DNA of 64,000 bases from a virus: the UHGV virus genome UHGV-0091736. One strand, given 5' to 3'. The translations under genes and the position numbers were made by a program. Below, in pieces: positions 40,021 to 40,320 of the stretch. Below the pieces are notes generated by a model. It was not told the origin of the DNA. It made no database searches and saw nothing but the letters and a program-made list of their open reading frames with translations. Numbering within the stretch: the first letter of the stretch is position 1; every line of letters starts with the position of its first letter.

Positions 40021-40320
40021 TTACCACTCCTTACCGGTTGTAATCGTAGAACCACCACACCATAAGGCTGTATCAATCACAACATTGTCTGGCGTAGACT
40101 TCTCTTCATTGATAGAAGGATTAGCATTAGAACAGGTTGCTCCGTTCCATCGCATATCAATTTCACCAGAAGGAACCTTCTCACCCTTATGCCAGCGAGA
40201 TACACAAATACCATCCACTGCTACTGCACACCATCCATCAGGACGGCTCTGTACGCAGCCTGTAAGGGCCACACAGACAAGGAAGATACAGATTAAGGAT
40301 ATTACACCACCCCAACTCAT
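40021..40320 (-). CDS. Cys-rich lipoprotein
   Basis: Signal peptide with lipobox LTGC, then a Cys-rich mature domain. Confidence 0.5.
   Translation of the reverse strand: MSWGGVISLICIFLVCVALTGCVQSRPDGWCAVAVDGICVSRWHKGEKVPSGEIDMRWNGATCSNANPSINEEKSTPDNVVIDTALWCGGSTITTGKEW

What the first reader, a model, noticed from the sequence alone, without database searches (positions are those of the whole stretch)
40021..40320. Cys-rich lipoprotein as a candidate superinfection-exclusion or receptor-masking factor
The ORF has a clear signal peptide with lipobox LTGC followed by a mature domain with seven further cysteines. Lytic phages are known to use early lipoproteins to block their own receptor. Its position among early small genes fits that role, though function is untested.
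Basis: inference. Interest (0 to 1): 0.45.

Follow-up and report, generated by a model that had tools for sequence, protein, structure and literature searches.

The report
Early phage lipoprotein that likely blocks LptD
This small early gene of a phiEco32-like E. coli phage encodes a lipoprotein clearly related to Rtp45, a phage protein shown by cryo-EM to plug the LPS exporter LptDE from the periplasm, so it most likely blocks further phage infection and hints that these phages use LptD as their final receptor.

Summary
The ORF is real: window 40021-40320, minus strand, 99 aa, with a signal peptide and lipobox LTGC. The cysteine count was wrong. There are 7 Cys in total: 2 in the signal peptide, the lipid-anchor Cys22, and 4 in the mature part.

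The window is a Kuravirus/Nieuwekanaalvirus (phiEco32-like podovirus). The ORF is the ortholog of phiEco32 gp106, "putative phage lipoprotein", in the early gene class. It belongs to Pfam PF24052 (E 3e-34) and matches PDB 9RPS chain D, Rtp45 (E 1e-13). Rtp45 is the exclusion lipoprotein of siphophage Rtp that binds LptDE from the periplasm and displaces LptD loop EL4. The Rtp45 disulfide pair, the VPxGExDxR motif and the C-terminal KEW are conserved. Kuraviruses add a hypervariable Cys63-Cys88 loop.

Related Kuravirus genomes carry the other parts of the siphovirus LptD module, outside this window. gp19 is a DUF6453 homolog of the LptD-binding proteins Rtp44 and RBP-Oeko. The gp18 tail needle has a gpJ-type tail-tip domain.

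The exclusion reading is therefore well supported by homology but untested. The new inference is that LptD is the Kuravirus terminal receptor. A spanin role is rejected, because a separate Rz/Rz1 pair lies at 8631-9150.

The parts
40021..40320 (-). Lipoprotein CDS (99 aa plus TAA stop), ortholog of phiEco32 gp106 and SU10 gp104; Rtp45/PF24052 family
40258..40320 (-). Signal peptide, aa 1-21 (MSWGGVISLICIFLVCVALTG); contains Cys11 and Cys16; no basic residue in the n-region
   Evidence: read from the sequence; invariant among Kuravirus orthologs
40255..40266 (-). Lipobox L-T-G-C (aa 19-22); Cys22 is the predicted lipid-modified first residue of the mature protein; +2 is Val, which predicts outer-membrane sorting
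   Evidence: sequence; G21 and C22 invariant across the family alignment A1
40141..40245 (-). Conserved core, aa 26-60 (RPDGWCAVAVDGICVSRWHKGEKVPSGEIDMRWNG); 19 of 35 residues identical to Rtp45. Cys31 and Cys39 align with the Rtp45 Cys30-Cys38 disulfide. Aa 31-36 align with the Rtp45 30-35 strand that pairs with LptD 318-323
   Evidence: PMC12685063
40057..40134 (-). Kuravirus-specific loop bounded by Cys63 and Cys88 (inferred second disulfide). It varies in length and sequence between phage clades (99-, 93-, 108- and 98-aa forms) and is absent from the siphovirus homologs
40024..40056 (-). Conserved C-terminal segment GGSTITTGKEW; G90, E98 and W99 are invariant across the family, including Rtp45 and SE-Oeko
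40326..40330 (-). Shine-Dalgarno GGAGG, 5 nt before the ATG
   Evidence: read from the sequence
40340..40416 (-). tRNA-Arg(UCU) directly upstream on the same strand, 19 nt before the start codon; the same arrangement occurs in phiEco32
39771..40019 (-). Downstream 82-aa gene (phrog_13462, function unknown). Its ATG lies 1 nt after the lipoprotein stop codon, so it is probably co-transcribed and translationally coupled

Best explanation
The gene encodes a small lipoprotein made early in infection.

Proposed steps:
1. It is exported and lipidated at Cys22.
2. It is sorted to the inner leaflet of the outer membrane.
3. Like its homolog Rtp45, it docks on the periplasmic rim of the LptD barrel of the LptDE LPS translocon. 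Its disulfide-stapled N-terminal strand and a long hairpin insert into the LptD lumen.
4. This forces the extracellular loops (EL4 in the Rtp45 complex) into a conformation that phage receptor-binding proteins cannot engage.

The result would be superinfection exclusion. It would also protect progeny from being wasted on lysed-cell debris. The block should act on phages that use LptD, probably including the Kuravirus itself. Kuravirus genomes encode a DUF6453 homolog (gp19) of the LptD-binding proteins, directly after a tail needle (gp18) that ends in a gpJ-type tail-tip domain.

Shown here: the ORF, the lipobox, family membership, conserved structural motifs, early-class position, purifying selection, and co-occurrence with gp18/gp19 in related genomes.

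Inferred: lipidation, LptDE binding, the exclusion phenotype, and LptD as the Kuravirus terminal receptor.
For: - Family membership: PF24052 E=3.4e-34. PDB 9rps_D (Rtp45) E=1.2e-13 over residues 6-66. Rtp45 itself scores PF24052 at 1.3e-37.
- Family alignment: the lipobox Gly-Cys, the Cys31/Cys39 pair (Rtp45 Cys30-Cys38 disulfide), G46, G52, D55, R57, G60, G90, E98 and W99 are invariant. The core is 19/35 identical to Rtp45.
- Mechanism of the homolog: cryo-EM of LptDE-Rtp45 (PMC12685063).
- Early class by orthology, with no gp36-type promoter upstream.
- Purifying selection: 13 synonymous and 0 non-synonymous changes against KBNP1711; core omega 0.13-0.37.
- Partner genes in Kuraviruses: Rtp44 tblastn hits Kuravirus gp19. 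The reciprocal gp19 search finds only Kuraviruses plus the receptor-binding proteins of small siphoviruses, including Oekolampad.
- gp19 against PDB 9rpt_C (RBP-Oeko): E=1.9e-9. gp19 is PF20051 DUF6453 at 2e-23, as is Rtp44 at 1e-113.
- The gp18 needle carries PF09327 Phage_Tail_Tip, as do the C-terminal ends of Rtp43 and the Chapo gpJ. gp18 aligns to the very C-terminus of Chapo gpJ.
- KBNP1711, whose lipoprotein is 100% identical to the window's, has both gp18 and gp19.
- Both halves are closest to the Klebsiella Webervirus versions, where the receptor-binding protein and the lipoprotein are also unlinked.
- gp19 is a diversity hot-spot: two alleles at about 62% identity, against 88-99% for gp18. 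This is typical of receptor-binding proteins.
Against: - There is no experiment on this protein or any Kuravirus ortholog. No paper in the searched library links Kuravirus to LptD.
- Kuraviruses are described as O-antigen dependent, with short tail fibers proposed to bind the second receptor (PMC11990801, PMC9509320).
- gp19 was not among the SU10 proteins found by virion mass spectrometry, although gp11-13, 16-18 and 20-24 were. It is not mentioned in the SU10 structure paper.
- gp19 is only 22-25% identical to Rtp44 and RBP-Oeko, below the >30% threshold used to define the LptD-specific family.
- The lipoprotein is not adjacent to gp19, and neither gp18 nor gp19 lies in this window.
- The signal peptide lacks a basic n-region.
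- The inserted Cys63-Cys88 loop could change the target.
- The AF2 model was uninformative, with pLDDT 43.
- The Rtp45 exclusion phenotype itself rests on structure; I found no in vivo assay in that paper.
Confidence: 0.65

Rival explanations
1. Hetero-exclusion only. The lipoprotein binds LptDE and shuts out competing LptD-dependent siphoviruses (Rtp-, Dhillonvirus- or T1-like). The Kuravirus itself does not use LptD, and gp19 has another role or another target.
For: Kuravirus infection is reported as O-antigen dependent, with short tail fibers proposed for the second receptor. gp19 was not detected in SU10 virions. The lipoprotein core is much closer to Rtp45 (54% in the core) than gp19 is to Rtp44 (22-25%).
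Against: A DUF6453 gene sits directly after a needle with a gpJ-type tip domain, the same gene order as gpJ followed by its receptor-binding protein in siphoviruses. At least six Gordonclarkvirinae genomes carry both genes: SU10, Bas90, KBNP1711, CHD5UKE1, HC-25922 and 172-1. Record counts in the phage collection are similar (87 and 92).
Confidence: 0.15
2. Same fold and family, different target. The Kuravirus-specific Cys63-Cys88 insertion retargets the lipoprotein to another outer-membrane protein. Alternatively, its main effect is to inhibit LPS/O-antigen export through LptDE as host takeover, reducing the primary O-antigen receptor, rather than to mask a protein receptor.
For: The insertion is large (8-36 aa) and hypervariable between clades, with omega about 1 between loop types. 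Rtp45 occupies the LptD lumen, so interference with LPS export is conceivable.
Against: All family-invariant residues, the disulfide pair and the motif segments flanking the insertion are retained. Within a loop type, changes are purely synonymous, which argues against loss of constraint. No evidence here points to another target.
Confidence: 0.12
3. Outer-membrane spanin (Rz1-like) or another lysis lipoprotein.
For: It is a small phage lipoprotein with cysteines, and one T1-like homolog is annotated 'u-spanin'.
Against: The window already has an overlapped spanin pair. The 8776-9150 (-) ORF is phrog_1152, Rz-like spanin, E=1.9e-37. The overlapping 8631-8891 (-) ORF is a lipoprotein with lipobox MSAC. 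The gene under study has no adjacent N-terminally membrane-anchored (i-spanin-like) partner. It lies in the early class, has no C-terminal transmembrane segment and is not proline-rich. The 'u-spanin' label in phage Chapo sits on the Rtp45-like gene next to the receptor-binding protein, so it is a mis-annotation.
Confidence: 0.02

Closest known systems
Rtp45 of Escherichia phage Rtp (UniProt Q333D9; PDB 9RPS chain D), and SE-Oeko (bas18_0026) of phage Oekolampad
   Same: Same Pfam family PF24052. Both are lipoproteins with a lipobox. The Cys-x7-Cys disulfide pair, the VP[AS]GE[IV]D[MV]R[YFW]xG motif and the C-terminal KEW are conserved. The presumed mechanism is the same: periplasmic docking on LptD and displacement of extracellular loops.
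   Different: The window protein is 99 aa against 76 and 72-73 aa. It has an extra 26-residue Cys63-Cys88 loop where the siphovirus proteins have a short Gly/Ser-rich turn. Its signal peptide has no basic residue. The gene is not next to its receptor-binding-protein partner; it lies in the early operon just after a tRNA-Arg. The host phage is a C3 podovirus, not a siphovirus.
Webervirus (Klebsiella T1-like) lipoprotein, for example FZ10_31
   Same: This is the closest non-Kuravirus relative along the full length, including the C-terminal TVTTTGKEW. It is also unlinked from the DUF6453 gene and placed among DNA-metabolism genes.
   Different: It has no Cys-bounded insertion. The phage is a siphovirus. 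Function is uncharacterised.
T5 Llp, the FhuA-blocking early lipoprotein
   Same: It works the same way in outline. It is an early-expressed periplasmic lipoprotein that binds the periplasmic face of the phage's own outer-membrane receptor and changes the extracellular loops (as summarised in PMC12685063; PMC9586334).
   Different: No sequence relationship was detected; PF24052 was the only Pfam hit at E<=1. The target is FhuA, a TonB-dependent transporter. Llp acts by long-range allostery, whereas Rtp45 displaces loops physically.
Cor lipoproteins of phi80, N15, HK022 and T1 (FhuA exclusion)
   Same: They are small phage lipoproteins encoded near tail or receptor-binding genes that inactivate the receptor. 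This is from my own knowledge and from the Rtp genome paper as I recall it; I did not re-read that paper here.
   Different: No similarity was detected by Pfam or PHROGs. The target is FhuA. They are usually linked to tail genes.
Rz1-type o-spanins
   Same: They are small phage outer-membrane lipoproteins with cysteines.
   Different: o-spanins are paired with an i-spanin gene and act in lysis. This phage has its own pair at 8631-9150.

Membership tests
Rtp45 / PF24052 phage exclusion lipoprotein family | Scores above the curated Pfam gathering threshold, and shows significant sequence similarity to the structurally solved member | tested here: met
   PF24052 117 bits against a 27-bit cut-off, E=3.4e-34; 9rps_D E=1.2e-13
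Rtp45 / PF24052 phage exclusion lipoprotein family | N-terminal signal peptide ending in a lipobox cysteine | tested here: met
   LTGC at aa 19-22; Gly-Cys invariant in alignment A1. Actual lipidation is not testable here.
Rtp45 / PF24052 phage exclusion lipoprotein family | Conserved Cys pair forming the Cys30-Cys38 disulfide of Rtp45, plus the hairpin motif and C-terminal KEW | tested here: met
   Cys31 and Cys39 align with Rtp45 Cys30 and Cys38. G46, G52, D55, R57, G60, G90, E98 and W99 are invariant (PMC12685063)
Rtp45 / PF24052 phage exclusion lipoprotein family | Encoded next to a DUF6453 receptor-binding gene downstream of gpJ (the small-siphovirus LptD locus) | tested here: not met
   There is no DUF6453 homolog in the window. 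In related genomes gp19 lies about 45 kb away in the late tail module. The two genes co-occur but are unlinked, as in Webervirus.
Rtp45 / PF24052 phage exclusion lipoprotein family | Binds the periplasmic side of LptDE and blocks binding of the phage receptor-binding protein | not testable with these tools
   This needs co-purification, cryo-EM and plating assays. The AF2 monomer model was uninformative, pLDDT 43.
T5 Llp family | Sequence or profile similarity to Llp; FhuA as target | tested here: not met
   The Pfam scan at E<=1 returned only PF24052. PHROGs returned phrog_4281 and two insignificant hits.
Two-component spanin (o-spanin, Rz1) | Lipoprotein gene embedded in, overlapping or adjacent to an i-spanin gene that encodes an N-terminally membrane-anchored protein | tested here: not met
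   The neighbours are a tRNA and an 82-aa phrog_13462 protein. The real Rz-like/Rz1-like pair is at 8631-9150.
Siphovirus LptD host-recognition module (gpJ tail-tip domain + DUF6453 receptor-binding protein + PF24052 lipoprotein), as a whole, in Kuraviruses | All three components are present in one genome | tested here: met
   SU10 and KBNP1711: gp18 has PF09327, gp19 has PF20051, and the lipoprotein has PF24052. For the phage of this window, only the lipoprotein can be seen.
Siphovirus LptD host-recognition module, as a whole, in Kuraviruses | The receptor-binding protein is a virion component and LptD is required for infection | tested here: inconclusive
   gp19 is absent from the SU10 virion mass-spectrometry list and unassigned in the SU10 structure. 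LptD dependence of Kuraviruses has not been reported.

The most novel reading that the evidence does not exclude
Kuraviruses (C3 podoviruses) have taken over the complete LptD host-recognition module of small siphoviruses and split it in two. A gpJ-type tip domain on the tail needle (gp18) would carry a DUF6453 receptor-binding protein (gp19) that engages LptD as the hitherto unknown terminal receptor. The Rtp45-like lipoprotein, moved into the early operon, would close LptD from the periplasm within minutes of infection. Its hypervariable disulfide-closed loop may sit at or near the tip of the hairpin that enters the LptD lumen; that position is my inference from the alignment, not from coordinates. 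This would be the first podovirus shown to use the essential LPS translocon.
Probability: 0.4. Interest if true: 0.75.

Novelty: new member of a known kind. Interest (0 to 1): 0.5.

Why it matters
The terminal receptor of Kuraviruses is unknown. These phages are widely isolated and are being considered for therapy, so the gap matters. LptD is essential, so knockout or transposon screens cannot find it.

A conserved early Rtp45-family lipoprotein, together with an unassigned DUF6453 gene behind the tail needle, gives a specific and cheap-to-test prediction. LptD would be the receptor, gp19 the receptor-binding protein, and this lipoprotein the exclusion factor.

If the prediction holds, three things follow:
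- It assigns a function to SU10 gp19, which the published virion structure does not mention.
- It shows that receptor modules move between siphovirus and podovirus tails.
- It predicts cross-exclusion between Kuraviruses and LptD-dependent siphophages, which is relevant to cocktail design.

The natural loop variants of the lipoprotein would also be useful probes of the LptD lumen.

Tried and rejected
- AF2 of the lipoprotein with a 10-sequence alignment gave pLDDT 43 and pTM 0.25, which is unusable, so I ran no fold search. The Rtp45 paper also reports that AF3 fails on this family.
- tblastn of Rtp44, the Chapo receptor-binding protein and SU10 gp16-20 against the window gave no hits. The window simply lacks the tail-gene segment.
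- The designed armadillo-repeat hits in the PDB search come from summed weak repeats with no significant single stretch. I treat them as spurious.
- The spanin hypothesis is rejected.
- The sigma-70 promoter scan around the gene found fewer sites than in shuffled sequence. The phage-sigma motif TAATGTATA is at chance level in the window, with none just upstream. There is therefore no dedicated promoter, and read-through from early promoters is assumed.
- I looked for covariation between lipoprotein loop type and gp19 allele and found none among four genomes. SU10 is A/93, Bas90 is A/99, KBNP1711 is B/99 and HC-25922 is B/108.
- Literature searches for Kuravirus or phiEco32 with LptD, for DUF6453, and for lipoprotein or receptor in the Kuravirus taxonomy paper found nothing relevant.
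- The contact table for Rtp45-LptD (Fig. S16) is held only as an image, so I could not check contacts residue by residue.

Full report
**The observation**

The window holds an ATG-initiated ORF at 40021-40320 on the minus strand, 99 aa. Its sequence is MSWGGVISLICIFLVCVALTGCVQSRPDGWCAVAVDGICVSRWHKGEKVPSGEIDMRWNGATCSNANPSINEEKSTPDNVVIDTALWCGGSTITTGKEW.

A GGAGG Shine-Dalgarno lies 5 nt upstream, as CCTCC at 40326-40330 on the plus strand. Residues 6-19 form a hydrophobic h-region that ends in the canonical lipobox L-T-G-C (aa 19-22). Val at +2 predicts Lol sorting to the outer membrane; that rule is established knowledge and was not tested here.

There are seven cysteines in all. Two (Cys11, Cys16) are in the signal peptide, Cys22 is the lipid anchor, and four (Cys31, 39, 63, 88) are in the mature part. 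The n-region has no Lys or Arg, which is unusual.

A six-frame lipobox scan of the whole window found only one other convincing lipoprotein.

**Where the window comes from**

The region matches about 109 phiEco32-like phage genomes of the subfamily Gordonclarkvirinae at 76-96% identity. The lipoprotein is 100% identical in protein to that of KBNP1711, a Nieuwekanaalvirus. It is the ortholog of phiEco32 gp106 "putative phage lipoprotein" and SU10 gp104 "putative lipoprotein".

These genes lie in the cluster experimentally classed as early in phiEco32, and in CDS 69-125 of SU10 (PMC8948821, PMC4281155). In the window the gene follows a tRNA-Arg(UCU) by 19 nt. It is followed 1 nt after its stop by an 82-aa gene of unknown function. 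No phage-sigma promoter motif lies upstream.

The gene is under purifying selection, with 13 synonymous and 0 non-synonymous differences from KBNP1711.

**What the protein is**

Pfam gives a single hit, PF24052 "Phage lipoprotein family", E=3.4e-34. PHROGs gives phrog_4281, function unknown.

tblastn against phage genomes finds about 87 Gordonclarkvirinae orthologs and about 300 weaker hits in small siphoviruses (Rtpvirus, Dhillonvirus, Rogunavirus, Tunavirus, Webervirus). These include rtp45 of phage Rtp.

A search of PDB sequences hits 9rps chain D, which is Rtp45, at E=1.2e-13 over residues 6-66. Rtp45 itself scores PF24052 at 1.3e-37.

The family is narrow. It has only 13 representatives at E<1e-3 among 1.84 billion cluster representatives.

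**What is known about the homolog**

Dunbar et al. 2025 (PMC12685063) solved the cryo-EM structure of LptDE(M) bound to Rtp45. Their main findings are:
- The lipoprotein of about 6 kDa binds the periplasmic side of the LptD barrel near strands 5-8, sandwiched between LptE and LptM.
- Residues 30-35 form a beta-sheet with LptD 318-323.
- Cys30 and Cys38 form a disulfide.
- A long hairpin protrudes up through the LptD lumen.
- Extracellular loop EL4 is displaced by up to 20 Å, which is incompatible with binding of the phage receptor-binding protein.

I found no in vivo exclusion assay for Rtp45 in that paper.

**Conservation in the window protein**

An alignment of Kuravirus forms with Rtp45, SE-Oeko, the Webervirus protein and the Chapo protein shows these invariant positions: the lipobox Gly-Cys, G29, C31, G37, C39, G46, G52, D55, R57, G60, G90, E98 and W99. 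Cys31 and Cys39 align with the Rtp45 disulfide pair. The core (aa 26-60) is 19/35 identical to Rtp45. The C-terminal ...TTGKEW is shared with the Webervirus protein, and KEW is shared with Rtp45.

The Kuravirus proteins differ by an insertion bounded by Cys63 and Cys88, probably a second disulfide. It replaces a short Gly/Ser turn in the siphovirus proteins. It comes in discrete forms of 99, 93, 108 and 98 aa. Between forms the loop evolves at omega about 1, while the core has omega 0.13-0.37. Within a form the changes are only synonymous.

From its position between the two motif segments of the Rtp45 C-terminal half, the insertion may lie at or near the tip of the lumen-entering hairpin. This is inference. 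I had no coordinates, and the AF2 model was useless, with pLDDT 43.

**The unexpected context**

In small siphoviruses the PF24052 lipoprotein sits beside the LptD-specific receptor-binding protein (Rtp44, RBP-Oeko), downstream of gpJ (PMC8594841; bioRxiv 10.64898/2026.04.02.716166).

tblastn with Rtp44 also hit Kuraviruses, with E from 1e-5 to 5e-11 over 83-90% of its length. The target is SU10 gp19 (Bas90_0015, KBNP1711 gp19), a protein of 343-344 aa annotated "membrane protein". It lies between the tail needle gp18 and the transglycosylase gp20.

Evidence that gp19 belongs to the LptD-binding family:
- The reciprocal search with gp19 finds only Kuraviruses plus the siphovirus receptor-binding proteins, including Oekolampad's.
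- gp19 hits PDB 9rpt_C (RBP-Oeko) at E=1.9e-9 and nothing else in the PDB.
- Pfam assigns gp19 to PF20051 DUF6453 at E about 1e-23, the same family as Rtp44 at 1e-113.

The preceding gene, the gp18 tail needle, carries PF09327 Phage_Tail_Tip. The same domain ends the gpJ homologs of Rtp and Chapo. gp18 aligns to the last roughly 260 residues of Chapo gpJ, right to the C-terminus, with E from 8e-6 to 4e-8.

Kuraviruses therefore carry all three elements of the siphovirus LptD module. The tip domain and the receptor-binding protein are adjacent in the late tail operon, and the lipoprotein sits in the early operon.

Further observations fit a functional pair:
- Both gp19 and the lipoprotein are closest to their Webervirus counterparts, where the two genes are also unlinked.
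- gp19 occurs as two alleles only about 62% identical, while gp18 is 88-99% identical. This is a pattern typical of receptor-binding proteins.

gp18 and gp19 are not in this window. The window corresponds to KBNP1711 from about 26990, through the genome end, to about 10204, and so lacks gp12(part) to gp23.

**Caveats**

- Kuraviruses are described as strictly O-antigen dependent. Long fibers are said to bind O-antigen and conserved short fibers are proposed to bind a second receptor (PMC11990801, PMC9509320).
- gp19 is not mentioned in the SU10 structure paper.
- gp19 is missing from the SU10 virion mass-spectrometry list, which contains all neighbouring structural and ejection proteins.
- gp19 is only 22-25% identical to the proven LptD binders.
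- No paper in the searchable library links Kuraviruses to LptD.

The LptD-receptor inference is therefore a hypothesis, which I put at about 0.4. The assignment of the lipoprotein to the Rtp45 family is secure.

**Rivals**

A spanin role is excluded. The window has its own overlapped Rz-like/Rz1-like pair at 8776-9150 and 8631-8891 (phrog_1152, E=1.9e-37). The "u-spanin" label on a T1-like homolog is a mis-annotation of the Rtp45-like gene next to the receptor-binding protein.

Two alternatives remain open: exclusion of competitor siphophages only, or retargeting or LptDE inhibition through the inserted loop.

**Verdict**

The protein is a new member of a known kind, with three variant features: an extra disulfide loop, early and unlinked placement, and a podovirus host. 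The added value is the testable prediction that LptD is the Kuravirus terminal receptor, with gp19 as its receptor-binding protein.

Noticed in passing
L007:10089-12090 (SU10 gp18-gp19), L006:5932-7933 (Bas90), L008:11759-13763 (KBNP1711); not in the window: Kuravirus gp19, annotated 'membrane protein', is a DUF6453 homolog of the LptD-binding proteins Rtp44 and RBP-Oeko. The gp18 tail needle has a gpJ-type Phage_Tail_Tip domain. gp19 is unassigned in the SU10 virion structure and was not detected by the 2014 virion mass spectrometry.
   Followed up: yes
L006, L007, L008, L012 (gp19 genes): gp19 exists as two alleles about 62% identical (SU10 and Bas90 against KBNP1711 and HC-25922), while the adjacent gp18 is 88-99% identical. 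This is a local diversity hot-spot, and it does not covary with the lipoprotein loop type.
   Followed up: partly
window 8631-9150 (-): An overlapped spanin pair. The 8776-9150 ORF is an Rz-like i-spanin (phrog_1152). The 8631-8891 ORF is an 86-aa lipoprotein with lipobox MSAC (phrog_2425, listed as unknown function). In related genomes the holin and endolysin lie far away, inside the late tail operon, so the lysis genes are split.
   Followed up: partly
window 40340-40416 (-): tRNA-Arg(UCU) ends 19 nt before the lipoprotein start codon, and the arrangement is conserved in phiEco32. tRNA processing might create the 5' end of the lipoprotein mRNA right at its Shine-Dalgarno. In Bas90 the annotated tRNA lies about 143 nt upstream instead.
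   Followed up: no
window 38162-38410, 38413-38658, 38655-38906, 39542-39763, 40846-41070, 42080-42298, 42299-42556 (all -): Seven small early ORFs of 72-85 aa align over their full length at 20-28% identity. They share the pattern MKI..K....L..GDVF.....Y......VNL.TG.V. They form a paralogous family of unknown function surrounding the lipoprotein gene, spread over several PHROGs.
   Followed up: partly
window 50954-51064 (+): A 36-aa hydrophobic ORF (MGWFLLVLILFTTVPIVAVFGCIAADLLGIKKGDDL) with a lipobox-like VFGC. It lies in the region between the divergent early (minus-strand) and late (plus-strand) gene blocks. It may be a small membrane peptide or a chance ORF.
   Followed up: no
L005:4992-5222 (phage Chapo F10C_0048): An Rtp45-family lipoprotein next to the receptor-binding gene is annotated 'u-spanin' in GenBank. 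This is probably a mis-annotation that could propagate.
   Followed up: partly
one search hit H90 (Escherichia phage mEp515, PP180003.1 50762-51694): A lambdoid phage carries an Rtp44 homolog at 64% identity, which suggests the LptD-binding module also circulates in temperate lambdoid phages.
   Followed up: no
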